Of a stretch of 41,608 nt of DNA, positions 6,620 to 41,608 are shown one piece after another. Below the pieces are notes generated by a model. That model made no database searches and was not told where the DNA came from. It worked only from the letters and a program-made list of their open reading frames with translations. The stretch is from Patescibacteria group bacterium. GTDB lineage: Bacteria; Patescibacteriota; UBA1384; GWA2-35-9; JBASTP01. The DNA is taken from positions 1-41,608 of the forward strand of contig JBASTP010000012.1 in the NCBI GenBank assembly GCA_049274945.1, in the 5' to 3' direction. Position 1 is the first letter of the stretch. Each line of letters begins with the position of its first letter. Position numbers and translations under genes: made by a program.

Positions 6620-6691
6620 GGGCCTGTAGCTCAGGGGTAGAGCAGTTGCCTCTTAAGCAATTTGTCGCGGGTTCGAATCCCGCCAGGCCCT
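6620..6691 (+). tRNA. tRNA-Lys (anticodon CTT)
   Basis: Acceptor gggcctg/caggccc. D arm gctcaggggtagagc. Anticodon loop ctcttaa. T arm gcggg-ttcgaat-cccgc. Confidence 0.8.
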
Positions 6692-6692
6692 C

Positions 6693-6887: not shown

Positions 6888-6897
6888 CCAGGCCCTC

Positions 6898-7644: not shown

Positions 7645-7893
7645 CATCAGCAGCGTACCGTTACCACCTTCCTCGTTCCACCACGATGGTGGAAGTACAG
7701 TTTGACCTGCGAGATTTCCATCAAGGCTCTCCACACTTCGCTAAAGTTTCGTCTAGTGAGCAATCGTTACTTTTATACTAGTTAGGTCTCATGAGAAAAG
7801 TGATAGTCTTAAGATAAGAACGCTGTGAAACTATAAAAAACAGAAAAATTAGGTTTCTTGATTTTTTCAATAAGGGAGACTAAAATTTAGACA

Positions 7894-8349
7894 ATGATTT
7901 TAGCACAAAAAAAACAACTCGAATCTTGGTACCACATTGCACGTGTGCTTACAATTTTTGCATTATTTTTTTCTGTGGGCGGGTTGTCTTTCTTCAAAAA
8001 TACTGAAGGTGCAATAATTTTTGTGGTAAGTCGGGTTGCTATTTTTTGGCCATTGTATCTAATTGGAACTCTTGAATTAAAAAATAGACTTGAACTTCTT
8101 CAGAACCAAAAAGAAATAAAAGAGAGATCGAAAAATTGGGCTGCGATCATCGGTTTTATTTTAGGGATCACTGCTGTTCTTTTCGGATTTGGTACTATAC
8201 CATCGGTTTTGATCAGTGCTTACGGCCTTACCAAACATAACCTCGGTAAAGGAGGTAAATGGTATGCCATAGCTGGTTTAATACTAAGCCTTTCGACATT
8301 GTTTATTGTTGGTGGAATTTTAGGAAAAACTCTGATCAACACAAAATAA
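7894..8349 (+). CDS. hypothetical small membrane protein (AT-rich island)
   Basis: 151 aa with four predicted TM segments. Confidence 0.45.
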   Translation: MILAQKKQLESWYHIARVLTIFALFFSVGGLSFFKNTEGAIIFVVSRVAIFWPLYLIGTLELKNRLELLQNQKEIKERSKNWAAIIGFILGITAVLFGFGTIPSVLISAYGLTKHNLGKGGKWYAIAGLILSLSTLFIVGGILGKTLINTK

Positions 8350-8350
8350 A

Positions 8351-8725
8351 TCAAGGGTCACGTAATATTCCTTTGAGACGATCAGTTACAGTCTTGAAGC
8401 ATATCGAAGTTTTATAATTTTTTTCCTCGACTGCTGCGTAGAGCAAACATGGGATATAATATCCAGAACTCGAAATAACAAACCATAATCGCCCCCCTTT
8501 TGATGGTGGAGTGATGGGAGTCGTTATTTTTATCCTGTCCTTACAAACTATATACCCCGGTCGGTTAGCTATCTGGCAAGATAAGCGTCCAAGTTCCCCG
8601 TATTGATTTGAGTGCGCGCCAAAATAAATTTCTAAATCCTTTATTAGTGATTTAAATCTTTTAAGTCGCCTAATATCATGTTCTATCAAGCTATTGCCGT
8701 AATGTTTTAGGTTTCGTCCTTCCAT
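8351..8725 (-). CDS. hypothetical basic protein, candidate toxin partner of the upstream Panacea-domain gene
   Basis: 124-aa ORF immediately downstream of the DUF4065 gene on the same strand, overlapping it by 35 nt. No recognisable domain. Confidence 0.3.
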   Translation of the reverse strand: MEGRNLKHYGNSLIEHDIRRLKRFKSLIKDLEIYFGAHSNQYGELGRLSCQIANRPGYIVCKDRIKITTPITPPSKGGRLWFVISSSGYYIPCLLYAAVEEKNYKTSICFKTVTDRLKGILRDP

Positions 8726-9308
8726 CCCGACTCAACTTTATATCAACTCGATTCATGAGTTCAGCGAATTGGTTTGAACCGAATAATTTAGTTGCTTCCG
8801 GATTCTCTAAATCCAAATCATCTTCCTGATCTTCGATATAATGAGCCAAATCATAATCAATTATCTCGCCCGTATTTTTAGTAGCCAGATAAGGGAAATC
8901 GGAATGCGATATTTCGCTGATCTCTCGAGGGTAAAGACCCTTGTAGGCTTCATTAATTGTATTAATAGTCAACAACTCTGATTCAGAAAAATGTTCACTA
9001 GGTTTTATGTCTGGATTAGCAATTGCAAAGTTTTTTTGGATGGCACCATAATAATTAGAACTAATTAAACAAGTAATTAAGCCTTCTCTTTCCATCTCTT
9101 TAAGAATTTTTGGTAACTCCATGATTGTTGGCCCATAATTGTTCTTACGATAGGTAAAGCCAGTAATAGCTTGATTAGTTTTTTGGAAGTATCGGAAATC
9201 GCAGAAATATAAAAGTTTCTGCAGTTTTGTTTCAGTTAATTTATCGTTATTATATTTCTGAAAAATATAGAGAATTAAGTTTCTGAGTTTATTTTTATTA
9301 ATCCTCAT
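8691..9308 (-). CDS. Panacea (DUF4065) domain protein, PanA/SocA-like antitoxin
   Basis: 205 aa. KLQKLLYFCDFRYFQKTNQAITGFTYRKNNYGPTIMELPKIL matches the Panacea core (LQKLLYF ... F.Y..YGP). Confidence 0.6.
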   Translation of the reverse strand: MRINKNKLRNLILYIFQKYNNDKLTETKLQKLLYFCDFRYFQKTNQAITGFTYRKNNYGPTIMELPKILKEMEREGLITCLISSNYYGAIQKNFAIANPDIKPSEHFSESELLTINTINEAYKGLYPREISEISHSDFPYLATKNTGEIIDYDLAHYIEDQEDDLDLENPEATKLFGSNQFAELMNRVDIKLSRDGRTKPKTLRQ

Positions 9309-9491
9309 TGTTAGTCCTCATTCCTTTCCCCAAGTATACAAGCAAATATCAAATTATAGCAAGCTTAGGCAGCAAACATATGAATATTTTCTATTCTAAG
9401 GTCATTTGTTGATAATTCCTGCAATTTGCCCGATCATTTACCTACTAAAAATTGAACCCACCCAACTCTATCCCTAAACGCCACCTTTAGT

Positions 9492-9520
9492 TTGACAAAC
9501 CGTCCATTTTGTGGTATACT
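9492..9520 (+). promoter_or_regulatory. consensus sigma70 promoter TTGACA-17-TATACT for the DEAD-box helicase (about 85-nt 5' UTR)
   Basis: tTTGACAaaccgtccattttgtggTATACTatagg. Confidence 0.6.
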
Positions 9521-17378: not shown

Positions 17379-17400
17379 GCCTAAAATTACAATGCTATCT

Positions 17401-17448
17401 ATTCTTAAATTCTCGAGAATTTAAGAATAGTTTGGGAGGTGCTATAAT
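17401..17448 (+). promoter_or_regulatory. 28-bp perfect palindrome operator overlapping the -35 region, plus extended -10 (TGcTATAAT) for the ArsR-family gene
   Basis: ATTCTTAAATTCTC|GAGAATTTAAGAAT at 17401-17428. TGcTATAAT at 17440-17448. Confidence 0.5.
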
Positions 17449-17474: not shown

Positions 17475-17741
17475 GTGAATTATCGTAAAATTGAAAAAAT
17501 TACCAAGGCGGTCGCCAATCATCGGCGGATTCAGATTCTGGATGTACTCAATACCAATGCTCGTTTGTCGGTAGGTGAAATCAGCCGGAAAACTCGCGGT
17601 AATGTTAAAACCATCGATGCCCATGTTAACCGATTATTTGCGGTTGGCATGATTACCAAACACACCGCCGGCAACCGCGTGCACCACACCATCACAACGT
17701 ACGGCATATCTATTCTCGAATTCTTGAGAAAACAAGAATAG
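17475..17741 (+). CDS. ArsR/SmtB-family transcriptional regulator
   Basis: 88 aa with ANHRRIQILDVL and HTH LSVGEISRKTRGNVKTIDAHVNRL. Confidence 0.7.
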   Translation: MNYRKIEKITKAVANHRRIQILDVLNTNARLSVGEISRKTRGNVKTIDAHVNRLFAVGMITKHTAGNRVHHTITTYGISILEFLRKQE

Positions 17742-17746
17742 TTTGG
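17709..17746 (+). promoter_or_regulatory. second copy of the operator-like repeat (imperfect palindrome) at the arsR 3' end, just upstream of uvrC
   Basis: tctATTCTcgaattcttgagaaaacAAGAATagtttgg, compared with upstream tctATTCTtaaattctcgagaatttAAGAATagtttgg. Confidence 0.35.
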
Positions 17747-24097: not shown

Positions 24098-25053
24098 TGT
24101 ACGATGCCATTGCTTCATTCAATGAACAGCTTGGATTTGAGCCGGTAGTTCATAACGGCGATAAATTAAAACCCGGCAGGAAATTTCTTGTCACCGGTAT
24201 GGGCGGCTCACACCTAGCGGCAGATCTGATCGGTTCGGTAGGGTTGCCGATTGAACTTACCGTCCATAAAAATTATGGCCTGCCAAAGGGCGATCTTTCC
24301 GATTACTTAGTGATTGCCAGTTCCTATTCTGGCAATACCGAAGAGGCGATTGACGGCTTACAAACTGCTCTTGATCAGAACTTGAAAGTAGCGGTCATGT
24401 CGGTTGGGGGCGCGCTGCTTGAAATCGCAAAAAAGCATGGCCTGCCGTATGTTCAAATGCCAGATACCGGCATACAGCCTCGGTCGGCTCTGGGTTACTC
24501 GCTGATGAGTATGCTCAAACTCATGGGTTTGAAAAAAGAGCTCAGCGAGCTTGCTGTCTTAGGTCCTAAGCTCACACCTAAAACACACGAGAAGCAAGGT
24601 AAAGAATTGGCTGCTCAGCTTGCCGGCAGTGTACCGCTAATCTATAGTTCCACCGAAAACCAAGCAGTCGCATACAATTGGAAAATCAAACTCAACGAAA
24701 CTGGTAAGATTCCCGCATTCTACAATGTGCTCCCCGAACTCAATCACAACGAAATGACCGGGTTCGATGTTGTAGCCGCAACCCAGAAACTTTCGGCAAA
24801 CATCCAATGTATCTTTCTGAGTGATAGTAACGATCACCCCCAAATCAAAAAGCGAATGGCGGTGCTCGAAAAGCTCTACCGCGCCAGGGGGTTAGCGGTG
24901 GTCAATATACCGCTCCAAGGTACTAGCCGCTGGGAACGAATACTCCGATCTATTATTCTGGCGGACTGGTTTTCCTATTACACTGCCGAGCACTATGGCG
25001 TTGAGGCCGAGCAGGTACCCATGGTCGAACAGTTCAAACAATTGATCTCATGA
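24094..25053 (+). CDS. bifunctional phosphoglucose/phosphomannose isomerase (SIS domain, archaeal-type PGI/PMI)
   Basis: 319 aa with SIS phosphosugar-binding motif VTGMGGSHLAADL and SYSGNTEE. Translationally coupled within the PPP operon. Confidence 0.65.
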   Translation: MMYDAIASFNEQLGFEPVVHNGDKLKPGRKFLVTGMGGSHLAADLIGSVGLPIELTVHKNYGLPKGDLSDYLVIASSYSGNTEEAIDGLQTALDQNLKVAVMSVGGALLEIAKKHGLPYVQMPDTGIQPRSALGYSLMSMLKLMGLKKELSELAVLGPKLTPKTHEKQGKELAAQLAGSVPLIYSSTENQAVAYNWKIKLNETGKIPAFYNVLPELNHNEMTGFDVVAATQKLSANIQCIFLSDSNDHPQIKKRMAVLEKLYRARGLAVVNIPLQGTSRWERILRSIILADWFSYYTAEHYGVEAEQVPMVEQFKQLIS

Positions 25054-27395
25054 AGCCAAGAGCAAATATCCCGACAATCCTGGTGGTGTTTGGCGCAACA
25101 GGCGATTTGATGGCACGCAAAATTGTGCCGTCACTCTTTCATCTTTACCAACACAACGAGCTCCCCTCGATGTTTATGGTGATTGGCGTATCACGGCAAA
25201 AACTTTCTGACAATGAGTTTCGTGAGCACGTAAGTGAGAACGTGGCTAAACATCACCACGGCTACCGCCCTCAAGCGGATTCCAAGTTTATCAAACTTTT
25301 TCACTACCACCGCGGCAGTTTTGAGAGCCTGCCCGACTACCGCGCCTTACATAAAAAGCTCGAACAGATTGATAACGAGTGGCGGGTTTGCTCAAACAAA
25401 CTGTTCTACCTTGCCGTGCCGCCAACCTACTACCGCACCATTTCAACTCATCTCGCCAAATCCGGCCTAACCGAGCCATGCAGCCCGGAGGAAGGTTGGA
25501 CAAGAGTGTTGGTTGAGAAACCGTTTGGCAAAGACTTAAAAACCGCTAAAGACCTCGACCAACTATTGGGCAAACTCTTTAAGGAAATCCAGATTTACCG
25601 GATCGATCACTACTTAGCCAAAGAGATGCTCCAGGGCATCATGAATTTTCGATTTTCCAACAACCTGCTTGAGCCTTCTTGGAATGCCAGTGCCATCGAA
25701 AAAATCGAAATCAGCTTACTCGAAAAAATCGGCGTTGAGCAGCGGGGAGCCTTTTACGATGGCGTAGGAGCGCTCAAGGATGTTGGGCAAAACCACTTGC
25801 TCCAGATGCTTGCGCTCATCACCATGGATCATCCCCTTACCTTGGATCCGGGGGCGATTCGCGATAAGCGGGCAGAAATCTTGCGTACGCTCGTGCCGCT
25901 TGCCCGCGGGGAAATGGCGGCCAGCACGTTCCGCGCGCAATACCAGGGTTATCGAGGTATTAAGGGAGTATCGGCTCACTCCCAAACAGAGACGTATTTT
26001 CGGGTGAAAGCCCACCTCGATTCACCCCGATGGCAAGGCGTACCGATTGTTCTGGAAGGCGGTAAGCGAATCAAAGATGTCCGGAAAGAGATTGTCGTAA
26101 CCTTCAAACACCCAACACCCTGCCTGTGTCCACCGGGTCAGCACTTTCGTAACCGAGTGATTTTTACCCTTGAGCCTACCGAAACGATCAAAATTCAATT
26201 TTGGGCAAAGAAGCCGGGGTTCGAATCAACCATCGAGGCGCGCGAGTTCAATTTTTTCCTCTACGAAAAAGAGCTGAAGGTTCAGTACGTTGAAGAATAC
26301 AGCAAGCTCTTACTCGATGCCTTCGCCGGCGATCAGACCCTTTTTATCAGCACCGAAGAAGTGCAGGCAATGTGGCGGTTTACTGATCCGATTATTGCGG
26401 CGTGGGATAAAAATATTGTAGCACTCAGGCAGTATAAGCCCGATACCAACGAGGCCGTTGACGAGGCATCCTTTATAGATGGCGAGCTGAAAACTGAAGT
26501 CAAAGAGCTAGGAATCGTGGGTCTTGGTAAAATGGGCGGTAGTCTTGCCCTTCAGCTCCTCGGAAAAGGTTACCGGGTAGTAGGTTTTAACCGTACTCCG
26601 GAGCCGGCTGCACTACTAGCCAAGCAGGGTATGATTGCCGTGGCATCGCTTGATGAGCTTCTAACAAAACTGAGTAAGCCTCGAATTATTTGGCTTATGG
26701 TTCCGGCCGGCAAGCCAGTAGATCAACTGATCGATGATTTAGCCGGGAGACTCAGCCGCGGTGATATTATCATTGATGGCGGTAATTCCTACTATGGCGA
26801 TTCAGCCCGCCGTGCTAAAGCTCTGCAAGTTAAAGGGATCCATTTTATCGATATCGGTGTTTCCGGCGGGCCCAAAGGCGCTCGGTACGGCGCGTCGCTC
26901 ATGGTAGGTGGAGATGCCAAGGTTTTCAAAAAAATAGTGCCGCTGCTTAACGATGTGGCAGTCCCCGGTGGTCTCGCATTTTTTGAGGGCGCCGGCGCCG
27001 GCCACTTTGTTAAAATGGTCCACAACGGTATTGAGTATGGCATGATGCAGGCAATCGCAGAGGGATTCACTATTCTTAAAAAATCTCGGTATAAACTTGA
27101 TTTGACCAAGGTCGCGCACGTGTATAACCAAGGCAGCGTAATTGAATCTCGATTGGTGGGCTGGCTCGCCGATGCCCTTGATCTCCACGGCAACGATTTT
27201 AACGGTGTTACGGGTTCAGTGGCTCATACTGGCGAAGGGCTCTGGGCCGTGGAAACCGCAAAAAAGCTTGGCATTAAAGCAAAAATAATAGAGGAAGCTC
27301 TCGAGTTTCGCAAACAATCGGCGAAAAACCCGAGCTTTACCGGCAAGATCCTTTCGGCTCTCCGTGAACAATTCGGCGGCCATGCTATAAAGTAG
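25050..27395 (+). CDS. zwf: fused glucose-6-phosphate dehydrogenase (N-terminal) :: 6-phosphogluconate dehydrogenase, decarboxylating short form (C-terminal)
   Basis: 781 aa in a single ORF. G6PD motifs VVFGATGDLMARK, RIDHYLAKE, EKPFG. From about residue 480, 6PGDH-like GIVGLGKMGGSLALQL and NGIEYGMMQAIAEGF. Confidence 0.8.
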   Translation: MKPRANIPTILVVFGATGDLMARKIVPSLFHLYQHNELPSMFMVIGVSRQKLSDNEFREHVSENVAKHHHGYRPQADSKFIKLFHYHRGSFESLPDYRALHKKLEQIDNEWRVCSNKLFYLAVPPTYYRTISTHLAKSGLTEPCSPEEGWTRVLVEKPFGKDLKTAKDLDQLLGKLFKEIQIYRIDHYLAKEMLQGIMNFRFSNNLLEPSWNASAIEKIEISLLEKIGVEQRGAFYDGVGALKDVGQNHLLQMLALITMDHPLTLDPGAIRDKRAEILRTLVPLARGEMAASTFRAQYQGYRGIKGVSAHSQTETYFRVKAHLDSPRWQGVPIVLEGGKRIKDVRKEIVVTFKHPTPCLCPPGQHFRNRVIFTLEPTETIKIQFWAKKPGFESTIEAREFNFFLYEKELKVQYVEEYSKLLLDAFAGDQTLFISTEEVQAMWRFTDPIIAAWDKNIVALRQYKPDTNEAVDEASFIDGELKTEVKELGIVGLGKMGGSLALQLLGKGYRVVGFNRTPEPAALLAKQGMIAVASLDELLTKLSKPRIIWLMVPAGKPVDQLIDDLAGRLSRGDIIIDGGNSYYGDSARRAKALQVKGIHFIDIGVSGGPKGARYGASLMVGGDAKVFKKIVPLLNDVAVPGGLAFFEGAGAGHFVKMVHNGIEYGMMQAIAEGFTILKKSRYKLDLTKVAHVYNQGSVIESRLVGWLADALDLHGNDFNGVTGSVAHTGEGLWAVETAKKLGIKAKIIEEALEFRKQSAKNPSFTGKILSALREQFGGHAIK

Positions 27396-29955: not shown

Positions 29956-30600
29956 GTGATGGAGATCGAAATTAAACCACAACTCAAAGAACTCCGGCAA
30001 ACGCGGCAAATCTCGCAAGAGGAGCTTGCCGAGCATTTGGGCGTTTCTCGACAAACCATTTTTGCCCTCGAACAGGGGCTAAGTGATCCCTCACTAACTT
30101 TAGCGTGTAAAATAGCCGAGTTTTTCGATCGGCAAGTTGAAGAAGTATTTTTTGGCGAGGCGCATGTGCAACTTGTTCCGTTTCGCGGTATTCGCGATCT
30201 CCACGAGGAGATCGATCGGTTCTTTGATGAAACGGTCCAAACGCTCCCTGCCGCTGCCAATCAAGTGAGTGCCCCGGCGGTCAATCTTCACCAAGACAAT
30301 AAGAACGTCTACGTTGAGTTTGCGGTACCTGGTTTTTCTACTGATGAGATTGATACTGAGATCACGGAGAAATATTTGACCGTCCGCGGCACCAAGCACG
30401 AGGAAAGTGAGGAAAAGGGTAAAATATGGCTGCGCCGAGAATTCGGTGCCACCAGTTTTGAGCGGTCAATCAGCCTGCCGCAAGGAGTCAAGGTGGATAA
30501 GGCGCAAGCGAACCTCAAGGACGGCAAACTCTCAATTATCCTGCCAAAGGCGGAGCCTACGAAGCCGAAAACCACAAAACTCAAGATCAAAGCGAGCTAA
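29956..30600 (+). CDS. XRE-family HTH (N-terminal) fused to Hsp20/alpha-crystallin domain (C-terminal)
   Basis: 214 aa. HTH LKELRQTRQISQEELAEHLGVSRQTIFALEQG. ACD AVNLHQDNKNVYVEFAVPGFSTDEIDTEI..LTVRG...FERSISLPQGVKVDKAQANLKDGKLSIILPK. Confidence 0.7.
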   Translation: MMEIEIKPQLKELRQTRQISQEELAEHLGVSRQTIFALEQGLSDPSLTLACKIAEFFDRQVEEVFFGEAHVQLVPFRGIRDLHEEIDRFFDETVQTLPAAANQVSAPAVNLHQDNKNVYVEFAVPGFSTDEIDTEITEKYLTVRGTKHEESEEKGKIWLRREFGATSFERSISLPQGVKVDKAQANLKDGKLSIILPKAEPTKPKTTKLKIKAS

Positions 30601-30667: not shown

Positions 30668-30745
30668 CAGGGCGCGCGTAGGGCCGACGCAAGGTCGGCC
30701 TCCCGACTCCCGACGAGAGGTCGGGACGTCGGGACTCAGGGGTAG
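30668..30745. repeat. CCCGAC/GTCGGG double-hairpin repeat (family member c)
   Basis: gcgcgcgtagGGCCGACgcaagGTCGGCCtCCCGACtCCCGACgagagGTCGGGAcGTCGGGActcag. Confidence 0.6.
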
Positions 30746-31053: not shown

Positions 31054-31115
31054 CTCAGGGGTAGAGCGTCTCTTTGACGTAGAGAAGGCCAGTGGTTCGA
31101 TTCCACTCACATGCA
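31044..31115 (+). tRNA. tRNA-Val (anticodon GAC)
   Basis: Acceptor gcatgtg/cacatgc. D arm gctcaggggtagagc. Anticodon stem tctct/agaga with loop ttgacgt. T arm agtgg-ttcgatt-ccact. Confidence 0.75.
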
Positions 31116-31174
31116 CATTCGTGGTAGCCCCGACGTCCGACGAGTCGGGGTGCCGACTGAAACGTCGGCAAGCA
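31116..31174. repeat. CCCGAC/GTCGGG hairpin repeat (family member d), inserted between tRNA-Val and its duplicated 3' fragment
   Basis: gtagCCCCGACgtccgacgagtcgGGGTGCCGACtgaaacGTCGGCAagca. Confidence 0.5.
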
Positions 31175-31222
31175 GTCTCTTTGACGTAGAGAGGGTCAGA
31201 GGTTCGATTCCTCTCGCGCGCA
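31175..31222 (+). other. tRNA-Val 3' fragment (anticodon arm, T arm and acceptor 3' strand, no 5' half), att-like duplication
   Basis: gtctctttgacgtagagagggtcagaggttcgattcctctcgcgcgca parallels 31068-31115 with compensatory T-stem changes. No matching 5' acceptor strand (gcgcgcg) or D arm upstream. Confidence 0.55.
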
Positions 31223-31239
31223 CAAAATCGCCACTAATT

Positions 31240-34699: not shown

Positions 34700-35983
34700 T
34701 CAGAATACTTCCGCAATACCATTTGAAAGCGCATAGGTTACTGGGGTAGTTAATACTGATTGTAGGGCTGGACCAATCACAAAATGGCGCTTGTAGCTGA
34801 ATATTGTATCAAACTCGTTTCGCTTTGAAATGAGCCGCTGCGCGCCATAGCTGCCGAGGGCCGCCGCCCATGGCAAACCCGTTGCGGCGCCAATATACCA
34901 AACCCGCGGATTATTTTCATCCGGCCCCATCACCGGAAGCAAATCCTTGCTTATTCCAAGCATACCGGGCCAAAGATATTCCATTTCAATATCAAGCGAC
35001 GGAAACTTTTTGGTTATGTAATTTTGGAGTCGTTTCCCAAATCGAGCGGTATTGCTCGTAATCGTGCGTGCGTAGGTGTAAAAAAGATCGCCGCCGCCAA
35101 TGAGCAACCGCCGGTCGCCGGTTATTCGAAAATAGTTATAAACAAGATCAGTATCCCAAGCCATCATGGCGCCGGACGGGAACATCTGATGAATTTGATG
35201 CTCGGATAACGGTTTGGTAATGCCCAAAAATGTCTGAACGTGATAGATTTCTTTTTTGAGAGCGCCTAGATCTGGAATAAACCGGTCGGCGCAGACAATA
35301 ATATGTTCCGCCCTCACGCGGCCGGCGGGAGTAATAACGCAATCCTCATCAATCCCTAATGCCGGCGTTTGCTCATACACTGTAACGCTCGATTTTCTAA
35401 GCAGGTCGCGCATGCCTTGGCAGTATAGGTAGGAGTTAATGCCAAACGTGTCTGGGTACCTCACCGCGCCCGCATAGCCATTCGACCCTATGATTTGCTT
35501 TACCGCGCTGCCATCATATAACGTGCTGGCATATCCCAGCTTGACGCGCGTCTCGTGTTCACTCTTGATGTGCCGAAAGCCAGAAGCGTTGTTAGCGATG
35601 AATAATGAATCCTGCACTGCGTAATCACAGGTAATATTGTTTCGCCGTATGTTTTCTCGAATCAATGAGACGCCCGAGAGCACAAACTCCCAGATGTGCT
35701 TGGCTTTTTCCGGGCCGTAACTATTCAGTAACGCACTTAGCTCAATTTCGGAATCTGGCGTAATAAATCCAGAGGTCTTGCCGCTTGCCCCCGCGCCGCA
35801 AAAATCTTGTTCAATCAGCACAACCGGAATACCGGCATTATTGAGGGTTTGCGCGCAAGCAAGGCCAGCCATGCCGCCGCCGATTACGGCAACGCTGGTT
35901 TTTATTTCAGCCGAAAGGCGTTCGCCCGGCTCGGGATCTTTTAAGGAATACCAGTAGACGCTGGCAGGTATGGTATGTGACAT
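34700..35983 (-). CDS. FAD-dependent oxidoreductase (DAO-like)
   Basis: 427 aa with N-terminal Rossmann motif VAVIGGGMAGLACA..E. Confidence 0.65.
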   Translation of the reverse strand: MSHTIPASVYWYSLKDPEPGERLSAEIKTSVAVIGGGMAGLACAQTLNNAGIPVVLIEQDFCGAGASGKTSGFITPDSEIELSALLNSYGPEKAKHIWEFVLSGVSLIRENIRRNNITCDYAVQDSLFIANNASGFRHIKSEHETRVKLGYASTLYDGSAVKQIIGSNGYAGAVRYPDTFGINSYLYCQGMRDLLRKSSVTVYEQTPALGIDEDCVITPAGRVRAEHIIVCADRFIPDLGALKKEIYHVQTFLGITKPLSEHQIHQMFPSGAMMAWDTDLVYNYFRITGDRRLLIGGGDLFYTYARTITSNTARFGKRLQNYITKKFPSLDIEMEYLWPGMLGISKDLLPVMGPDENNPRVWYIGAATGLPWAAALGSYGAQRLISKRNEFDTIFSYKRHFVIGPALQSVLTTPVTYALSNGIAEVF

Positions 35984-36167
35984 GTTAATTGGAACCAGCT
36001 TATCGAGGAACTAAGGGTTTGGCAACATCTGAGGGTATCTTCAGTACCAGCTTTACGGGTTTGAATTGAACTACCATTTCATAAAGCCGACCAAGGGTAA
36101 ATTAAGACGCTAGGCCCTCAAAAGAGCGGCGCGATCGTGCTGCGGGATGACAAAAGCAAATCATAAC

Positions 36168-36196
36168 CTTGACAGCAACGCGCTATTGGTCTATAT
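36168..36196 (+). promoter_or_regulatory. sigma70 promoter TTGACA-17-TATATT for the methyltransferase gene
   Basis: aacctTGACAgcaacgcgctattggtcTATATTcag. Lies inside the 5' extension of ORF 36147, so ATG 36249 is more likely the true start. Confidence 0.5.
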
Positions 36197-36248
36197 TCAG
36201 CATGCTTTCTTTTACATTCTAGCTGTGCCAAAAGCGAGGGGTGTTCTG

Positions 36249-37352
36249 ATGCGACCCACAGTATCGGTTGACAAATTCTTCGATCTTCTTGGGCTCTCTC
36301 AGTTATCGTCCGAAGGTTTGAGCGATGTGATCGGCAGAAATGCCTCGAGTTCGAGCGTTCAACAGTTTCAACGCTCTGATCTAGATTACTGTAAGTACGC
36401 TGATGATGCCTCGGCAATCGAATTCTATCGTTGCTTTTACGGCAATACTGTTCCAGAACTCGATATTACTTGGTCCGAGCTCTACTGCCGTGTGTATAAC
36501 CGAGATCTCGACGCCAAAACGCTACCTGAGTTGGTTCATTTCTGTTTAGCCCACGAAACTCGCCGTCAAGTGCTTGACGCCGGCTGCGGTGATGGCATTG
36601 CACTCTGTTTTATGGCGATAAATTGTCCTGACAGCCGTTTTTGCGGTATAGATCGAGATCAAGACGCGCTAAACCTAGCAGAGCGACGCATCAAAAGACT
36701 CGGGCTGCAAAATGTCACGCTGCGAAAGGGAGACATATTTGCTCTGGATCAAGAGCTCAACGGCACTTTCGACTGCATAATTGCTAAGAACATTTTGGAC
36801 GACGCCCGCGAGCGTGGCAGTGTTTACATTGATGGACGATTCATGGCGCAAGAAAAACTTATGAGGTTAAGACGTTTAATCAAAACCAATGCTAGGGTTT
36901 GGGTCAGCTTGTCCCCATATCCACATAACACCGCAAACTTCACGAGCCGCCTAGAAGCTGACATGGTAACAGCGGGATTTACCGTACCACCGGCGCAAGT
37001 GATCCAATATCAAGTGTCTGATCACGCGGTGGAGTATTTGATCTGGACGCTGACACCCGCCGCCCCGCATCAAACCCAGGAAAGCCGACTTCAGCACCGA
37101 CCGGAATACGTAAGTTCCTACCACTTCCCTGTGGGCCACGCTATCCCCGTAGAGGACCTTGTCATGGCTGAGAGATGCTACATCAACCTGAATGCTCCTT
37201 CTACCTGCCCGAGGTGCAGTACACCTGGAGCGTGTGTAATTTACAACGGTGGCCCTGCCCGGACACTCGTTAACCACTTCAAGGTGTTTGCCTGTGTCTA
37301 CTCCTGCGGCGGGTGTAACAATGGATACTTGTATGCCGAGGTGATCGACTAA
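36249..37352 (+). CDS. class I SAM-dependent methyltransferase with a C-terminal Cys-rich (zinc-ribbon-like) extension
   Basis: GAGGGG RBS 7 nt before ATG 36249 (MRPTVSVDKFF...). Motif I VLDAGCGDGIALCFMA. C-terminal CPRCSTPGAC..CVYSCGGCNNGY. Confidence 0.6.
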   Translation: MRPTVSVDKFFDLLGLSQLSSEGLSDVIGRNASSSSVQQFQRSDLDYCKYADDASAIEFYRCFYGNTVPELDITWSELYCRVYNRDLDAKTLPELVHFCLAHETRRQVLDAGCGDGIALCFMAINCPDSRFCGIDRDQDALNLAERRIKRLGLQNVTLRKGDIFALDQELNGTFDCIIAKNILDDARERGSVYIDGRFMAQEKLMRLRRLIKTNARVWVSLSPYPHNTANFTSRLEADMVTAGFTVPPAQVIQYQVSDHAVEYLIWTLTPAAPHQTQESRLQHRPEYVSSYHFPVGHAIPVEDLVMAERCYINLNAPSTCPRCSTPGACVIYNGGPARTLVNHFKVFACVYSCGGCNNGYLYAEVID

Positions 37353-37642
37353 TGCCAGCCGACTATTGCCCGGGATATCATCGTCAGTTTGGGAGGACCT
37401 TCGACATAGCATCACTGGTCAACGCTGGATTTGGCTACATCAACCCACCCGATACCCATTGTCCAAAGTGCAAAAATCAGAAAACTTACCGACAGCCTGG
37501 TACCAGCACGAGAGCTCACCTGGTTGGCCAATGGGCAAACTACGATACTGTCGAGGGCTGGTTGCAGATTTGTGACCCATGTCAAGAAGGTTTTATCTGT
37601 ATCAAGATGGTCAAACACAGATCACAAAAATCAGCCACTTAG
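37352..37642 (+). CDS. Cys-rich small protein (96 aa), translationally coupled to the methyltransferase (TAATG overlap)
   Basis: CPGYH, HCPKCKNQ, CDPCQEGFIC, consistent with one or two zinc-ribbon-like knuckles. Followed by the terminator at 37661-37690. Confidence 0.5.
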   Translation: MPADYCPGYHRQFGRTFDIASLVNAGFGYINPPDTHCPKCKNQKTYRQPGTSTRAHLVGQWANYDTVEGWLQICDPCQEGFICIKMVKHRSQKSAT

Positions 37643-37660
37643 CTTTATTAGCTCATGCAA

Positions 37661-37690
37661 CCGACGGAAAATTCATTCGTCGGTTTTTTT
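37661..37690 (+). terminator. rho-independent terminator
   Basis: CCGACG-gaaaattcatt-CGTCGG followed by TTTTTTT. Confidence 0.7.
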
Positions 37691-37805
37691 GTCAAGAACT
37701 TGCGCACAAGGCTTCGCGGGGCACACTCCTTTTATGATCAGCGATGATTCAAAAAATTTCTGAGCAAGTGGTGGCTTGCCACGCGAAGCTCGAAGGGCGA
37801 AGCGT

Positions 37806-37870
37806 GGACCACCTTAAACTTAATTGGAGCCGGCTGGTTGAGGATTTGAAGGGGTGGCAGGTTTTGAAGG
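37806..37870. repeat. cassette-boundary repeat A (about 60 bp), at the 3' end of the vapBC cassette
   Basis: ggaccaccTTAAACTTAATTGGAGCCGGCTGGTTGAGGATTTGAAGGGGTGGCAGG. Internally an imperfect palindrome. About 80% identical to repeat B. Confidence 0.55.
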
Positions 37871-37884
37871 GAAATATACTAATA

Positions 37885-38256
37885 TTATATCTTTCTGAGT
37901 AACAAATGGGAGATCTTTTCAAAATCATCAACATTGCGAGTGAGTAAGTGAGAACCGGTAAAAATGGCAGTGGCTGCGATCACACTGTCAGCGAGTTCAA
38001 TTGTATGTTGTTGTCGTAAGTAGGCTGCAATTCTTGCAATCCTTGAGTCCAATGGGATGACCGAGACAATTGCTAAAAAATCGTTGATCTTATGTATTTC
38101 GCTGTCGGTCAAATTTTTGAATGATAACAGTTCTAGTTCTGTAATTGTGGACGCGTAAAAGGTAGTCTGGGTTCTAAAAAGCTCGTCAATTATTTTTGCT
38201 ACTGGTACCTCACCTTTTAGATAATAAATGATTGAATTGGTATCGAGCGTATACAC
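37885..38256 (-). CDS. vapC: PIN-domain toxin VapC
   Basis: 123 aa. N-terminal LDTN, then the conserved acidic residues of the PIN fold. Sits 15 nt after a small upstream ORF. Confidence 0.75.
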   Translation of the reverse strand: MYTLDTNSIIYYLKGEVPVAKIIDELFRTQTTFYASTITELELLSFKNLTDSEIHKINDFLAIVSVIPLDSRIARIAAYLRQQHTIELADSVIAATAIFTGSHLLTRNVDDFEKISHLLLRKI

Positions 38257-38271
38257 AGTTGTTTAATAGCT

Positions 38272-38448
38272 CTAAAGTGACGGCAGTTTTCTCAGCCAAC
38301 CTCGGCGCATCAATTCGAGCTCTTTGATCGGATCTGGCTTTCGATTTTTCCAAATCCCTTTAAGACGCTTCAAAATAACCAGTCGCCGCTTTGGATCAGC
38401 GGCATACATAAGGTCTAACGGTCGATTATTTCTGGTCTTTGTTCGCAT
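38272..38448 (-). CDS. vapB: VapB-like antitoxin candidate (58 aa), unannotated
   Basis: ATG complement of 38446-38448. MRTKTRNNRPLDLMYAADPKRRLVILKRLKGIWKNRKPDPIKELELMRRGWLRKLPSL. Immediately upstream of vapC on the same strand. Confidence 0.4.
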   Translation of the reverse strand: MRTKTRNNRPLDLMYAADPKRRLVILKRLKGIWKNRKPDPIKELELMRRGWLRKLPSL

Positions 38449-38515
38449 GTAATAATATTCTCATACTCCTGACTTTTTGTCAATTTCCGTGGTAAACAAG
38501 TATCAACTGTCGATT

Positions 38516-38582
38516 TGAACTACACTAGATTTAATCGGAACCGGTTGGTTGAGGAGTTGAGGGCGTGGCAGCAGGTTTACAA
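38516..38582. repeat. cassette-boundary repeat B
   Basis: gaactacacTAGATTTAATCGGAACCGGTTGGTTGAGGAGTTGAGGGCGTGGCAGCAGG. Confidence 0.55.
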
Positions 38583-38639
38583 GCTTGTTAGAGTGATCGA
38601 ACCAGTGTCACTGTGATAGATAAAAGGGATTACGGAACT

Positions 38640-39026
38640 CTATGGTTTTAAACCCTTAGCTTCTAAGCATAGCTTAAAATAACTCTCATAGTCTGGCCTG
38701 AGATACAAATCTTTCTTTGCAGCCTCTTTATACTCTGATGAGAGCTCTGCTTTAGTTTTTAGTAATTCTATGGCTCCCTTTTCTGCAACTTCCGCACATT
38801 TAATCCTAGTCTCCTGTTCTGATAATTTCGCGTGTGTTTCACTCGTTTCTGCATCGATCTTGCGTTGTTGCTCATTCTGTTTGATCGAAAGTTCTTGTTG
38901 CCTTATGTCTGACCATTTTCCTATGGCGTAGATACCAACAATAACAATAGCGAGGGCCACACTGATATAAGGTACAAGTTTCCGATTCTCCTTGAGCGTT
39001 TTTTCGATCAATTTATACCAATCCAT
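38640..39026 (-). CDS. hypothetical TM-anchored coiled-coil protein
   Basis: 128 aa, one TM helix, Glu/Lys-rich coiled-coil, AT-rich codon usage. Confidence 0.4.
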   Translation of the reverse strand: MDWYKLIEKTLKENRKLVPYISVALAIVIVGIYAIGKWSDIRQQELSIKQNEQQRKIDAETSETHAKLSEQETRIKCAEVAEKGAIELLKTKAELSSEYKEAAKKDLYLRPDYESYFKLCLEAKGLKP

Positions 39027-39135
39027 AACTTGTAATTATAACTCCAATAATTTAGATGTGGCATTTTTCTCCTTTATATTTGGTGAAACTTTAATATCCT
39101 CATAATTCTCTAAATCTATTTCCTTATCTAATATT

Positions 39136-39729
39136 TTAAGATTCTTCTTGTTTTTGTTTTTCTAATTCAAGGCTAAATAAATTTCCATCGTTTTGGTAAT
39201 AATATTTCCAGCCATCACCAATCCCATATTTAGCCGCCGTTTTTTTATCAGGTTTTTTCATTTTTTCTAGTCTCTCGAAATAATCTAGGGGGATTTTTTG
39301 CCAGTCTTTACCTAGCAAAGATTTGAATTTCTTTTCAACTTCTTCCTTCACAACTGAGGGCTCTTTGCTAATTTCAAAAGCATAGTCGTCCATATCAACA
39401 GCAAGCATTACTCTAGCGTGCTTGAGATCTCCTAGAGCCTTAGCATATCTATACCAATCCTTAGCTATCTCTAGCGCTTGATCAGGGACATGTGCAAACC
39501 TTTGTTTTAATCGAAGATAATTTATCTCCATAGCATCAAAGGCGTTCTGGACGTCAATGAAATGCGGAGAATCAAAATGATTAAGCGAAAAAATTATATT
39601 TTTTTGACGGTAAATGCCTTGCTCGATATCCTCCACAGTAGCGGGGCGATTAACGGCCGAGGAACTACTCGACTTGTATATCAAATAGATGATTACTGCG
39701 CCTATAAGTATCCAGAGAGGCATGTACAT
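39136..39729 (-). CDS. hypothetical TM-anchored protein
   Basis: 197 aa with N-terminal TM helix and no recognisable domain. Confidence 0.4.
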   Translation of the reverse strand: MYMPLWILIGAVIIYLIYKSSSSSAVNRPATVEDIEQGIYRQKNIIFSLNHFDSPHFIDVQNAFDAMEINYLRLKQRFAHVPDQALEIAKDWYRYAKALGDLKHARVMLAVDMDDYAFEISKEPSVVKEEVEKKFKSLLGKDWQKIPLDYFERLEKMKKPDKKTAAKYGIGDGWKYYYQNDGNLFSLELEKQKQEES

Positions 39730-39859
39730 AAAATTACTTTATGAAATAATTAATATCTTTGTTATAAAGTTTAGCAAATTTTTTCATCTCCAAAACGTCC
39801 AGTCGGTATTCACCAGATTCTACTCTTGAAATATATGACTGGGGTCGTCTGTGTTGCAT

Positions 39860-39915
39860 GGACTATCTTAGATTTAATTGGGAACGGCTGATCAGAAAAT
39901 TGACTGCCACCTCGA
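39860..39915. repeat. cassette-boundary repeat C (5' half matches A and B), at the 3' end of the HEPN-like gene
   Basis: ggactatctTAGATTTAATTGGGAACGGCTGatcagaaaattgactgccacc. Confidence 0.45.
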
Positions 39916-39924
39916 GTTAAGTAT

Positions 39925-41301
39925 CTAAACTAGGATAGGTTTAACTAACAACATTAATTTTCCTAATTGTAGATTGGCAGAATCGTCAATACAAGCGTAA
40001 TCTATTTGCTCTATAAAACTGTTCTTGTCTATCTTAAGAACTACCATTATTACTATCAATTTTCTTAAATATTCGAGGGTGTTTAATAAAAGATTCTTAA
40101 TATCACCATATCTTGAGTTCAACTTTCTAAATACATTTGGTTTCAACCGGCTGCCATGGGCAAATGTACTCCTTGCAACATAGGCATCATAGAGACACTT
40201 ACGAATCTGACGTGGATTCTCACCCAGAAAAGACATTATCTTCGACAACCTCATGCCTAATTTATATGACAACTCTTTCGTATCCTCGAGTATTAGTGCC
40301 TCTAATCCCATAACTGCACCTGCAATCCGTCCTTCTATAACGTTGTGACGCATGAGGGTATCGCTATAATGAGCGTAAGCAATACTAATATGGTCCACGT
40401 TTTGATCACTTGCCGATCCGTATAAATTGACCGGTAGTGTTAGATCCAACTTTTTCCAAAATTTTCTTAGTTTCTGTTCATCCATTCTATCTATTACACC
40501 TATTTCCGTTGCAACTTCTCGACTTCCAGATTTCATTGTCCCTCGGCTTAAAAAGTCGAGTATAGAATCAGAATACATTTGATAGGATACATATTTTACA
40601 CTGGCTACCTTAAAGAGCCTTAACATTACAATTAGCTTTTCCACTCGTTTTTGTATTTCGTTTGCTCGATCTGTTGGAAGCTCAACAGTAGCAATAGCCG
40701 AAATGTCACCCAGCATATAATTCTGTAGACTAAAGCGATAGTAAGGCACCTCTTTTTCCAAATCGTCGCTTTGTGTTTGACGAATTATAATGCCTTTTAC
40801 AGGCCTTATTTTTTTTGGCTTTAATACAATACCCTGTAACTCCACCTGGGCTCCAGATTTAAAACGTAAGTTTGACAATTCGCTAATAAACTGTACTACA
40901 AACTTAGCTGAAGCAGTTTTCGCCTTCCTTGGGTTGTCAAAATGATGTTTCACTACTACTCCTAGCAAACTATCAATATCTCGTTTTACTGTATCTTTTC
41001 TTCCTGGGTAAGCTACTAATAATTCATTAACGGAAATTTTGTATTCACTTACTTGATGAACTTCTCGTAAGGCTTGATTAGTAGCTCGAAACCAGACTTT
41101 TTTAGTAGTATACTCTCCGTCCGCAGAGGGATTTTCGACGCCGCGGTCTCCATAATTAAAATGCCTAAGTTTCCAGTGGAAGTAGGTTTCGAAGTCTGGG
41201 AGAAATTTTTTTTCCACTATACCGTTTTGAACAATAGTTCCAGCTCTGGTAACGAGTAGGTTCAATTTATCGGATAGCTGTTGATTTTTTCTAGTAATCA
41301 T
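39925..41301 (-). CDS. large hypothetical protein with C-terminal HEPN-like Rx4H motif (ApeA/Abi-like candidate defence nuclease)
   Basis: 458 aa. C-terminal ...YDAYVARSTFAHGS... gives R-x4-H. Overall architecture (novel N-terminal region plus C-terminal HEPN) matches ApeA-type proteins. AT-rich island. Confidence 0.35.
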   Translation of the reverse strand: MITRKNQQLSDKLNLLVTRAGTIVQNGIVEKKFLPDFETYFHWKLRHFNYGDRGVENPSADGEYTTKKVWFRATNQALREVHQVSEYKISVNELLVAYPGRKDTVKRDIDSLLGVVVKHHFDNPRKAKTASAKFVVQFISELSNLRFKSGAQVELQGIVLKPKKIRPVKGIIIRQTQSDDLEKEVPYYRFSLQNYMLGDISAIATVELPTDRANEIQKRVEKLIVMLRLFKVASVKYVSYQMYSDSILDFLSRGTMKSGSREVATEIGVIDRMDEQKLRKFWKKLDLTLPVNLYGSASDQNVDHISIAYAHYSDTLMRHNVIEGRIAGAVMGLEALILEDTKELSYKLGMRLSKIMSFLGENPRQIRKCLYDAYVARSTFAHGSRLKPNVFRKLNSRYGDIKNLLLNTLEYLRKLIVIMVVLKIDKNSFIEQIDYACIDDSANLQLGKLMLLVKPILV

Positions 41302-41413
41302 AAACGAGAGACTTTGTCCTCGTTTAGTCTGACATAAATTGTAGTTTCACTCAAGGATATATGTGGAGAGGGAATTATATTGGCTAATTGAGGTGTTAAG
41401 TGAAGAAGACCCA

Positions 41414-41608
41414 AGGGGAAGCGAACAAGTAAATCTGCCTAAGCTCTGGAGACCTCGCTACGGCAGATTTACTTCACGAAACTCTTCCGTTTCGTGGGCT
41501 TCCGCCTACGGGGAAAACACAGATTTCTGTTTTCCCCGACCCCCTTTCGCGTTCGATTCCCCTTGCCCTAATCACGAAAAGAACTCGCATAAAGCGAGTC
41601 TTTCGTGA
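41414..41608 (-). ncRNA. copy 3 of the tRNA-adjacent structured repeat (minus strand, diverged, with leader hairpin), running to the window end
   Basis: The reverse complement aligns with copies 1 and 2. Stem changes are compensatory: gcaaatctgcc/ggcagatttgc becomes gtaaatctgcc/ggcagatttac, and the leader hairpin caaaaag..ctttttg becomes cacgaaag..cttttcgtg. Confidence 0.5.

What the first reader, a model, noticed from the sequence alone, without database searches (positions are those of the whole stretch)
37806..41301. AT-rich minus-strand cassette array in which every cassette ends with a related ~60-bp repeat, resembling an integron attC arrangement
Three gene cassettes lie in the same orientation, and each is followed at its 3' end by a member of one repeat family: HEPN-like gene + repeat C; 197-aa + 128-aa membrane proteins + repeat B; vapB-vapC + repeat A. 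A and B are about 80% identical, and C shares the 5' half. A is an imperfect palindrome. The region is strongly AT-rich relative to the backbone, with TA modules and small hypotheticals typical of integron cassettes. Structured-repeat copy 3 bounds it at 41414. No integrase is visible within the window. If an intI-like gene lies just beyond the window end, this would be an integron-like platform in a lineage where such elements are essentially undescribed. Alternatively these are serial insertions of a MITE-bounded element.
Basis: partly seen in the sequence, partly recalled or inferred. Interest (0 to 1): 0.75.

Follow-up and report, generated by a model that had tools for sequence, protein, structure and literature searches.

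The report
Repeat-bounded accessory gene array, not integron
A Patescibacteria contig carries four small blocks of accessory genes (toxin-antitoxin, defence-like and others), each bounded by a copy of one conserved ~45-70-bp sequence; the copies are not integron attC sites and look most like leftover attachment sites from repeated site-specific insertions.

Summary
The repeats are real. Copies A (37805-37874), B (38516-38590) and C (39859-39903) are direct repeats far beyond chance. A fourth, 5'-truncated copy Z lies at 35983-36032, outside the AT-rich region.

The integron reading fails. Neither strand of any copy folds better than shuffled sequence. There is no consensus hairpin and there are no R''/R' core-site pairs. 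No recombinase is found anywhere. The window is the whole 41.6-kb contig of a Patescibacteria MAG, so nothing lies "just beyond".

Best reading (confidence about 0.5): the copies are relic attachment sites from tandem accretion of integrase-less modules, similar to cis-mobilizable elements (CIMEs), at an insertion hot spot. A trans-mobilised cassette system that uses an unstructured site is not excluded. Interest is moderate.

The parts
35983..36032 (+). Repeat copy Z. It is 5'-truncated, lies in 50%-GC DNA and abuts the start codon of the minus-strand FAD-oxidoreductase (DAO) gene. It reads HVNWNQLIEELRVWQHLRV.
   Evidence: nhmmer E = 0.002 with a model built from A, B and C only. Peptide HMM E = 5.6e-12. 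87% identical to the L032 copy over the 30-nt core.
36147..37642 (+). Block 0 between Z and A: a rare class I SAM methyltransferase (401-aa ORF; NCBI aa) and a 96-aa Cys-rich ORF, followed by a terminator at 37659-37685.
   Evidence: Pfam Methyltransf_31 and related families. Only 6 homologues in the large protein collection. Terminator scan.
37744..37902 (+). 52-aa + strand ORF whose C-terminal half is repeat A (…VDHLKLNWSRLVEDLKGWQVLKG…). It is the only window copy with an upstream in-frame ATG.
   Evidence: ORF list. Homologous small ORFs P0041, P0042 and P0043.
37805..37874 (+). Repeat copy A. It marks the boundary between 50%-GC DNA and the AT-rich region.
   Evidence: GC values.
37885..38483 (-). 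Block 1: PIN/VapC toxin gene (37885-38256), 58-aa putative antitoxin gene (38272-38448) and a sigma-70-like promoter (38483-38454).
   Evidence: PF01850 E = 7.6e-14. NCBIfam VapC models below their cut-offs. Promoter scan 10/12 matches. The 58-aa protein has no family hit.
38516..38590 (+). Repeat copy B, with a sharp left edge at TGAAC.
38640..39859 (-). Block 2: 128-aa and 197-aa proteins, each with one N-terminal hydrophobic helix, preceded by a 41-aa remnant of an Xre-type HTH gene (39734-39859). The remnant lacks its first ~22 codons and ends exactly at the left edge of copy C.
   Evidence: ORFs. HTH_3 match covers only profile positions 23-55. An in-frame stop lies upstream.
39859..39903 (+). 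Repeat copy C. Only the left ~45 nt are homologous; the right part is replaced. Reads MDYLRFNWERLIRKL.
39925..41301 (-). Block 3: 458-aa protein of a rare uncharacterised family. Its all-helical C-terminal domain carries an invariant R377-x4-H382 motif, possibly HEPN-like.
   Evidence: 31 homologues, all unnamed. Invariant columns. AF2 model with pLDDT 89.5. No significant structural match. A homologue lies next to an AlwI-type R-M system.
41416..41608 (-). Right boundary: inverted copy of the 147-nt structured repeat plus the hairpin that follow tRNA-Arg and tRNA-Lys elsewhere in the contig. The contig ends 5 nt after the hairpin.
   Evidence: Inverted repeats I1, I2 and I4. Alignment A2.

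Best explanation
The repeats are copies of one conserved 45-70-bp sequence that serves, or once served, as an attachment or recombination site at an insertion hot spot of this Patescibacteria chromosome.

Proposed history: foreign segments were inserted one after another by a site-specific recombinase encoded elsewhere (on another contig, on a lost element, or since deleted). Each event left a further direct copy of the site. The result is Z-[methyltransferase block]-A-[vapBC]-B-[membrane pair + HTH remnant]-C-[458-aa defence-like gene]-(tRNA-linked repeat). Each unit is now an integrase-less, site-flanked module, comparable to a cis-mobilizable element (CIME) produced by tandem accretion.

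The site overlaps a tiny + strand reading frame and evolves under protein-like constraint. This is expected if incoming elements carry a replacement copy of the end of a small target ORF.

Shown:
- The repeat family exists and has homologues in other genomes.
- It has no hairpin structure.
- It has sharp edges and lies next to a truncated gene.
- It is associated with alternative flanking DNA elsewhere.
- No recombinase is present in the contig.

Inferred:
- The repeats arose by site-specific recombination.
- The order of events.
- A recombinase acting in trans exists.
For: 1. Four direct copies are spaced 1822, 711 and 1343 nt apart and separate unrelated gene blocks. Blocks 1-3 have a much lower GC than block 0 and the backbone (0.36-0.39 against 0.49).
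2. The family is real beyond this contig. A profile built only from the window copies retrieved two small ORFs from 1.84 billion proteins (E = 2.4e-5 and 6.2e-5). A third was found later. They lie on contigs L032, L033 and L034.
3. L033 and L034 are 99.4% identical over 682 nt (aaRS gene, 154-aa gene, block). They become unrelated about 20 nt after TGGCAAC, with 3 mismatches clustered in the last ~19 nt, as in a hybrid att site.
4. In the window, B and C start abruptly at TGRAC. The left edge of C cuts an HTH_3 gene at profile position 23.
7. The cargo is typical of integrated mobile DNA: a PIN toxin, and a rare 458-aa protein whose homologues lie beside an R-M system and in accessory regions.
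8. The array abuts a tRNA-linked repeat like those that precede another low-GC island in the contig.
9. Tandem accretion that leaves att-flanked elements without integrase genes (CIMEs) is a documented process (PMC5704250, read).
Against: - No recombinase is found in 41.6 kb, and none could be linked to the block in L032.
- The copies share no long identical core. The longest identical runs are 7-10 nt, so any recombination was ancient or involved diverged sites.
- No empty site, circular junction or close relative with a different cassette order could be examined. The only other instance of the region is a 100% identical 2.6-kb contig.
- Three consecutive units all lacking an integrase need either repeated deletions or mobilisation in trans.
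- The supposed target ORF has an unconserved N-terminal part and no consistent ribosome-binding site. Z and C are truncated.
- The L033/L034 divergence could be an assembly switch at a repeated sequence rather than a strain polymorphism.
Confidence: 0.5

Rival explanations
1. Integron or CALIN: the repeats are attC sites recombined as folded bottom strands by an IntI integrase encoded off-contig.
For: Co-oriented short gene blocks are each followed by a related 45-70-bp repeat. TA modules and small hypothetical genes are typical cassette content.
Against: - Single-stranded DNA folds of both strands of A, B and C give -1.8 to -4.5 kcal/mol, no better than shuffles.
- RNAalifold consensus energy is -0.4 to -1.0 kcal/mol, with no supported helix.
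- No RYYYAAC…GTTRRRY pair lies 40-150 nt apart on either strand of 35900-41450.
- The repeats are conserved in primary sequence with a 3-nt period. attC sites instead vary in sequence and are conserved in structure (PMC9024848).
- vapBC has its own promoter-like site.
- One unit is transcribed in the opposite direction.
- There is no IntI in the contig.
Confidence: 0.03
2. A new cassette platform that works like an integron but is not one. Small promoter-bearing cassettes, each ending in an unstructured double-stranded recombination site, are excised and inserted in trans by a dedicated recombinase encoded elsewhere in the genome.
For: - The units are very small (711, 1343 and ~1550 bp) and none has its own recombinase.
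- All edges are sharp at the same position, TGRAC.
- The same site borders alternative DNA in another Patescibacteria population.
- The site is highly conserved between distant hosts.
Against: - No recombinase has been identified.
- Only 4 + 3 copies are known. The two large DNA scans used a pattern too narrow to count the family, and viral contigs gave nothing.
- The copies are 63-83% identical with no shared core, which is more like decay than an active system.
- The truncated HTH gene and the truncated copies C and Z also look like decay.
Confidence: 0.12
3. The block is a small protein-coding gene (a micro-protein or its pseudogenes) that has been duplicated or is carried by several modules. 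The repeats are paralogous gene fragments, not recombination sites.
For: - Conservation has a three-base period, with the second codon position half as variable as the others (0.245 against 0.46 and 0.40).
- Arg and Leu codons show synonymous swaps, and every column is physico-chemically conserved.
- The frame is open in all copies.
- Gene callers have called small ORFs over it in other metagenomes.
- There is no RNA or DNA structure.
Against: - C keeps only 15 conserved codons and Z has no start codon.
- The N-terminal extensions are unrelated, and I saw no consistent ribosome-binding site (direct reading).
- The family is very rare among 1.84 billion representatives, with 2 clusters.
- Paralogy alone does not explain the sharp common left edge, the truncated neighbouring gene, or the L033/L034 divergence exactly at the block edge.
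Confidence: 0.15
4. Relic ends of an insertion sequence or MITE (solo terminal sequences that include the start of a transposase gene), left after serial transposition.
For: Repeats bound DNA segments. The coding-like block with NTG at its first codon in A, B, C and L032 could be a transposase N-terminus.
Against: - All copies are direct, with no terminal inverted repeats or target-site duplications.
- No transposase is present in the window or in the visible part of L032.
- No larger protein carries this N-terminus in 1.84 billion representatives.
- Independent decay would not truncate all copies at the same point.
Confidence: 0.05

Closest known systems
Tandem accretion of integrative elements and cis-mobilizable elements (CIMEs), for example ICESt1-related islands of Streptococcus (review PMC5704250)
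   Same: Direct repeats of an att sequence, which includes the end of a target gene, separate successive modules. The modules have lost their integration genes. The cargo is accessory. New elements insert into an att site of the resident one.
   Different: The units here are far smaller (0.7-1.8 kb), and all four lack an integrase. The att-like sequence is new and overlaps only a tiny ORF. The copies are diverged, with no identical core. The host is a Patescibacteria MAG. No cognate integrase is known.
Integron cassette arrays and CALINs (attC sites; IntegronFinder definition, PMC9024848)
   Same: Short gene units each end in a recombination-site-like repeat, with the junctions at a fixed position. 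TA modules are among the cargo. There is no integrase within the cluster, as in a CALIN.
   Different: There is no imperfect-palindrome structure, no R/L boxes, and no basis for extrahelical bases. The primary sequence is conserved rather than the structure. At least one unit has its own promoter. One unit has the opposite orientation.
Genomic islands integrated at tRNA/tmRNA genes or at the ends of protein genes (for example dusA- or ssrA-specific islands), which leave partial gene duplications as direct repeats
   Same: A partial copy of a gene end marks each island boundary. The partial copies start abruptly where the homology with attP begins. The array lies next to a tRNA-linked repeat.
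   Different: The repeated segment is not a tRNA or tmRNA piece. ARAGORN and Rfam are negative. The 'gene' is only a 20-64-aa ORF with no known function.

Membership tests
Integron attC site / CALIN | Imperfect palindrome whose bottom strand folds into a hairpin (R''-L''/L'-R' with extrahelical bases) | tested here: not met
   DNA folds of both strands of A, B and C give -1.8 to -4.5 kcal/mol, with z from -0.19 to +1.36. Consensus folds of 4-5 copies give about -0.4 to -1.0 kcal/mol with no supported helix.
Integron attC site / CALIN | Core sites RYYYAAC (R'') and GTTRRRY (R') at the two ends of the site | tested here: not met
   Regex scan of 35900-41450 on both strands with 40-150 nt spacing gave 0 pairs.
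Integron attC site / CALIN | Sequence variable, structure conserved | tested here: not met
Complete integron | IntI tyrosine recombinase with attI and Pc next to the array | tested here: not met
   No recombinase Pfam hit in any ORF of 120 aa or more in the contig. The contig ends at 41608, so a location off-contig cannot be tested.
CIME / tandem accretion array | Direct repeats of one att sequence flank each module | tested here: met
   Z, A, B and C are all in direct orientation at the module borders.
CIME / tandem accretion array | Modules lack integration and transfer genes | tested here: met
   Pfam, NCBIfam and PADLOC scans of all module genes.
CIME / tandem accretion array | The repeat contains the end of a target gene that incoming elements restore | tested here: inconclusive
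   The block is the C-terminal half of 47-64-aa ORFs in A, L032, L033 and L034 and evolves like coding DNA. The ORF is not a recognised gene, and its N-terminal part is not conserved.
CIME / tandem accretion array | The same site borders variable DNA in related genomes | tested here: met
   L033 and L034 are 99.4% identical for 682 nt and unrelated beyond the block edge. An assembly artefact is not excluded.
CIME / tandem accretion array | A cognate site-specific recombinase recombines the sites | not testable with these tools
   None is present in the contig.
MITE / IS remnant | Terminal inverted repeats and target-site duplications | tested here: not met
   All copies are direct and no inverted partner was found.
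tRNA / tmRNA gene fragment (classical att core) | The sequence matches the 3' part of a tRNA or tmRNA | tested here: not met
   ARAGORN and Rfam find nothing at the copies. Only in L032 does a weak tRNA-like domain lie 25 nt away (14.5 bits against a gathering score of 47).
Type II toxin-antitoxin VapBC | PIN-domain toxin preceded by a small antitoxin gene | tested here: inconclusive
   PIN domain E = 7.6e-14. NCBIfam VapC models are below their cut-offs. The 58-aa upstream ORF has no family hit.
HEPN-domain protein (458 aa) | R-x4-6-H motif in an all-alpha four-helix domain | tested here: inconclusive

The most novel reading that the evidence does not exclude
Patescibacteria possess a cassette-exchange system that is functionally analogous to integrons but evolutionarily unrelated. 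Very small, self-promoted gene cassettes would end in a conserved, unstructured ~70-bp site that doubles as a micro-ORF, and would be shuffled in trans by a recombinase not yet identified.
Probability: 0.12. Interest if true: 0.8.

Novelty: new member of a known kind. Interest (0 to 1): 0.4.

Why it matters
Mobile-element biology in Patescibacteria (CPR) is poorly charted, and these tiny genomes are thought to have little room for accessory DNA. A conserved sequence tag that marks where accessory toxin-antitoxin and defence-like genes accumulate would give a practical handle: a searchable profile for locating variable regions and their recombinases in CPR genomes.

If the modules prove to be mobilised in trans, this would be an independent invention of cassette capture. 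If not, the result is a useful negative. An integron-looking layout can arise from ordinary att-site accretion, so attC claims need a structure test.

Tried and rejected
- **attC structure.** Rejected.
- **Extending the contig.** Impossible. The window is the whole NCBI contig. The only other record is an identical 2.6-kb Logan contig that breaks in the structured repeat. Exact-protein look-ups of neighbouring genes found nothing.
- **DNA pattern scans.** A consensus of A, B and C was scanned against 185,579 species genomes and 241 M metagenome records. Only chance hits came back, inside conserved genes I read as RibB-like (Bacteroidota), AroD-like and GreA-like, plus an unrelated repeat. In hindsight the pattern was too narrow: it would not match the true homologues in L032-L034.
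- **Viral and phage searches.** A broader pattern against viral contigs gave 0 hits. The phage collection by blastn gave none.
- **Repeat C as the missing N-terminus of the truncated HTH gene.** Rejected. There is an in-frame TAG, the register is wrong, and the frame is not shared by A and B.
- **The block as a tRNA 3' end or a tmRNA segment.** I considered this because L032 has a T-arm/acceptor-like stretch nearby and its ORF ends …AKLALAA. ARAGORN was negative even at lowered thresholds. The Rfam tmRNA model aligned only a 67-nt tRNA-like domain outside the block, at 14.5 bits. Left unexplained.
- **A small RNA or 3'-UTR element.** No conserved structure and no Rfam hit.
- **A larger protein, such as an integrase N-terminus, carrying the motif.** None found among 1.84 billion representatives. 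The top hits were repetitive artefacts.
- **A conserved two-gene module of 458 aa + 197 aa.** Rejected, because the neighbour of the closest homologue is unrelated.
- **The methyltransferase homologue's locus (L035).** It contains no block.
- **Homology between L032's tRNA-like stretch and the window's 147-nt repeat.** Not supported.


Full report
**Source of the window.** The methyltransferase and the 458-aa protein of the window are recorded in NCBI as proteins of a 'MAG: Patescibacteria group bacterium' (locus tag WAP74_04545). Their longest contig is 41,608 nt, which is exactly the window length. The window is therefore the entire contig, and nothing beyond 41,608 can be read. The only other record of the region is a 2,613-nt Logan contig (SRR28002976). 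It is 100% identical to 38925-41537 and breaks inside the structured repeat. The backbone carries housekeeping genes: uvrA, uvrB and uvrC-like genes, RNase Y, transketolase, transaldolase, a G6PD-6PGD fusion and eight tRNAs.

**Check of the observation.** The three repeats exist.
- A (37805-37860) and B (38516-38571) are 79% identical over 56 nt. C (39859-39890) shares the first 32 nt at 72-75%.
- A 21-nt consensus with up to 3 mismatches hits exactly these three sites, against 0.03 expected.
- Each repeat lies just downstream, in minus-strand terms, of a gene block. The blocks are the 458-aa gene; the 197-aa and 128-aa genes, each with one N-terminal hydrophobic helix; and a 58-aa ORF plus a PIN/VapC toxin gene.
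- GC is 0.39, 0.36 and 0.37 in the three blocks, against 0.49 in the adjacent DNA.
- The claim that A is an imperfect palindrome does not hold.

**Extension of the observation.** A profile built from A, B and C finds a fourth copy, Z, at 35983-36032 (E = 0.002). Z lies in the 50%-GC spacer between the FAD-oxidoreductase (DAO) gene and the methyltransferase gene, and it lacks the first ~13 nt of the block. The array is therefore Z-[methyltransferase + 96-aa ORF]-A-[vapBC]-B-[128 aa, 197 aa, HTH remnant]-C-[458 aa]. The copies are spaced 1822, 711 and 1343 nt apart. The array is not limited to the AT-rich part.

**Test of the attC hypothesis.**
- Single-stranded DNA folds of both strands of A, B and C give only -1.8 to -4.5 kcal/mol, with z-scores from -0.19 to +1.36 against dinucleotide shuffles.
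- RNAalifold on four or five copies gives consensus energies of about -0.4 to -1.0 kcal/mol and no supported helix, in either orientation.
- No RYYYAAC…GTTRRRY pair exists on either strand of 35900-41450.
- Rfam finds nothing there.
- No ORF of 120 aa or more in the contig hits a recombinase or transposase family.
- attC sites are defined by conserved structure and variable sequence (PMC9024848). These repeats show the reverse.

The integron reading is rejected.

**What the repeat looks like.** In one + strand frame all copies are open and read as follows:

| Copy | Peptide |
|---|---|
| A | VDHLKLNWSRLVEDLKGWQVLK |
| B | LNYTRFNRNRLVEELRAWQQVY |
| C | MDYLRFNWERLIRKL… |

A profile of these four peptides was searched against 1.84 billion representative proteins. 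Apart from repetitive artefacts, it returned two small ORFs. P0041 (62 aa) reads …VDFVRVNWNQLIEELRLWQQLQ…, and P0042 (47 aa) reads …IDHLRFDWNQIIRELKEWQRLKD… (E = 2.4e-5 and 6.2e-5). A third, P0043, came from a later search.

Over the six distinct DNA copies (L034's copy is identical to L033's in the compared columns), the mean pairwise difference by codon position is 0.46, 0.245 and 0.40. There are synonymous Arg swaps (AGA/CGA/AGG) and Leu swaps (TTG/CTA/CTG/CTT), and the replacements are conservative. The block therefore evolves like coding sequence on the strand opposite to most of the cargo.

Several points argue against an ordinary gene. Only ORFs of 20-64 aa carry the block. Their N-terminal parts are unrelated. 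I saw no consistent ribosome-binding site (direct reading). C and Z are truncated. No larger protein with the motif was found.

**Evidence that the block marks recombination junctions.**
1. L033 and L034 come from two different metagenomes. They are 99.4% identical over 682 nt, covering a class I aaRS gene, a 154-aa gene and the block. They become completely unrelated about 20 nt after TGGCAAC. Three mismatches cluster in the last ~19 nt of homology, as expected for hybrid att sites. An assembly switch at a repeat cannot be excluded.
2. In the window, B and C begin abruptly at TGRAC.
3. The left edge of C abuts a 41-aa remnant of an Xre-type HTH gene. The remnant matches only positions 23-55 of the HTH_3 profile, and an in-frame stop lies upstream. 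This is a true breakpoint.
5. In L032 the block also sits inside a low-GC stretch that carries a truncated N6/N4 methylase gene, HNH, Schlafen/AlbA_2 and Prim-Pol genes.

**Mechanism proposed.** The block is an attachment sequence at an insertion hot spot. Successive site-specific integrations each added a unit and a further direct copy of the site. The integrase genes were lost, or always acted in trans. This is the pattern described as tandem accretion, which produces cis-mobilizable elements that keep attL and attR but lack integration genes (PMC5704250).

The protein-like constraint fits a target that is the end of a small ORF, with each incoming element bringing a replacement end. The right border of the array is the inverted 147-nt structured repeat and hairpin. 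Elsewhere in the contig these follow tRNA-Arg and tRNA-Lys, and there the repeat ends in a duplicate of the neighbouring tRNA's 3' end. The copy after tRNA-Lys precedes another low-GC island. The region thus lies between two kinds of recombination landmark. I put this explanation at about 0.5.

The steps not shown are these: that recombination, rather than duplication, created the copies; which recombinase acted; and whether the units are still mobile.

**Rival explanations.**
- Classical integron or CALIN: about 0.03.
- New trans-mobilised cassette platform using an unstructured site: about 0.12. This is the most novel reading not excluded. It is favoured by the very small, uniformly integrase-less units and by the shared sharp edge. 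It is disfavoured by the diverged, partly truncated copies.
- Paralogous micro-gene family without a recombination role: about 0.15.
- IS or MITE relics: about 0.05.

**Cargo.**
- VapC is a clear PIN-domain protein. The 58-aa partner has no family.
- A sigma-70-like promoter (TTGACA-18-AATATT) lies between B and the 58-aa gene.
- The 458-aa protein belongs to a rare family of 31 members, all unnamed. R377-x4-H382 is invariant, and further positions in the helical C-terminal region are also invariant.
- Homologues of the 458-aa protein lie next to an AlwI-type restriction-modification system and in an accessory region with a group II intron. The downstream neighbour is not conserved. The gene therefore travels alone.
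- The methyltransferase of block 0 is also rare, with 6 homologues. In another organism it lies beside a HicAB module.

**Comparison with known systems, and verdict.** The array has the layout of an integron cassette array but fails every defining test for attC and IntI. It fits the known phenomenon of att-site accretion and CIME formation. The differences are a new att-like sequence, unusually small units, and a host phylum in which I found no report of such arrays (searches found nothing relevant).

I rate it a new member of a known kind, of moderate interest (0.4). There is a 0.12 chance that it is a truly new cassette system. The main limits are the lack of the rest of the genome, of close relatives and of read-level data. 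In addition, my two large DNA scans used a pattern too narrow to census the family.

Noticed in passing
window 1842-1988, 6740-6886, 41416-41561 (inverted): A 147-nt, strongly hairpinned repeat (93-99% identical copies) follows tRNA-Arg(TCT) and tRNA-Lys(CTT), and also lies at the contig end. Each copy ends in a T-arm/acceptor-like stretch resembling the 3' end of the neighbouring tRNA (6872-6897 is 85% identical to 6667-6692). Low-GC DNA follows. It may be a tRNA-targeting mini-element or an att relic. Rfam has no match.
   Followed up: partly
window 31068-31117 and 31175-31224: The 3' half of tRNA-Val(GAC) is duplicated 107 nt downstream at 86% identity, like an attL/attR pair with almost nothing left between the two copies.
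   Followed up: no
window 6898-9500: A second low-GC island (GC 0.35-0.40) lies directly after tRNA-Lys and the structured repeat. It encodes a SocA/Panacea-domain antitoxin-like protein (8691-9308) and three proteins without a family. It contains no copy of the A/B/C block.
   Followed up: partly
window 5667-5705 and 30672-30710: A 39-nt G+C-rich repeat (85% identical) lies just upstream of tRNA-Arg(TCG) and tRNA-Val. It may be a shared promoter or processing element.
   Followed up: no
window 25050-27395: A single 781-aa ORF fuses glucose-6-phosphate dehydrogenase with the NAD-binding and C-terminal domains of 6-phosphogluconate dehydrogenase.
   Followed up: no
window 29956-30600: A 214-aa ORF combines an Xre-type HTH_3 domain with an HSP20/alpha-crystallin domain.
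   Followed up: no
window 37158-37188 and 37415-37445: The Cys-rich C-terminal segment of the methyltransferase is repeated in the following 96-aa ORF (CYINLNAPSTCPRCS against GYINPPDTHCPKCK). In a distant homologue (L035) the equivalent segment is called as a separate 49-aa ORF.
   Followed up: partly
window 17396-17435 and 17707-17746: Two 40-nt copies (85% identical) of a nearly perfect palindrome (TATCTATTCTTAAATTCTCGAGAATTTAAGAATAG) lie in a low-GC spacer upstream of the uvrC-like gene.
   Followed up: no
L032 9245-9436: A 67-nt tRNA-like/tmRNA-like domain lies on the minus strand, with a perfect T-arm and a G3:U70-type acceptor (Rfam tmRNA 14.5 bits, far below the gathering score). It lies 25 nt from the block. 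The + strand ORF over the block ends …ADAKLALAA*, which resembles a tmRNA tag. ARAGORN finds no tmRNA.
   Followed up: partly
L030 209-3532: The closest homologue of the 458-aa protein (46% identity) lies directly downstream of an AlwI-family restriction endonuclease gene and two N6/N4 DNA methyltransferase genes.
   Followed up: no
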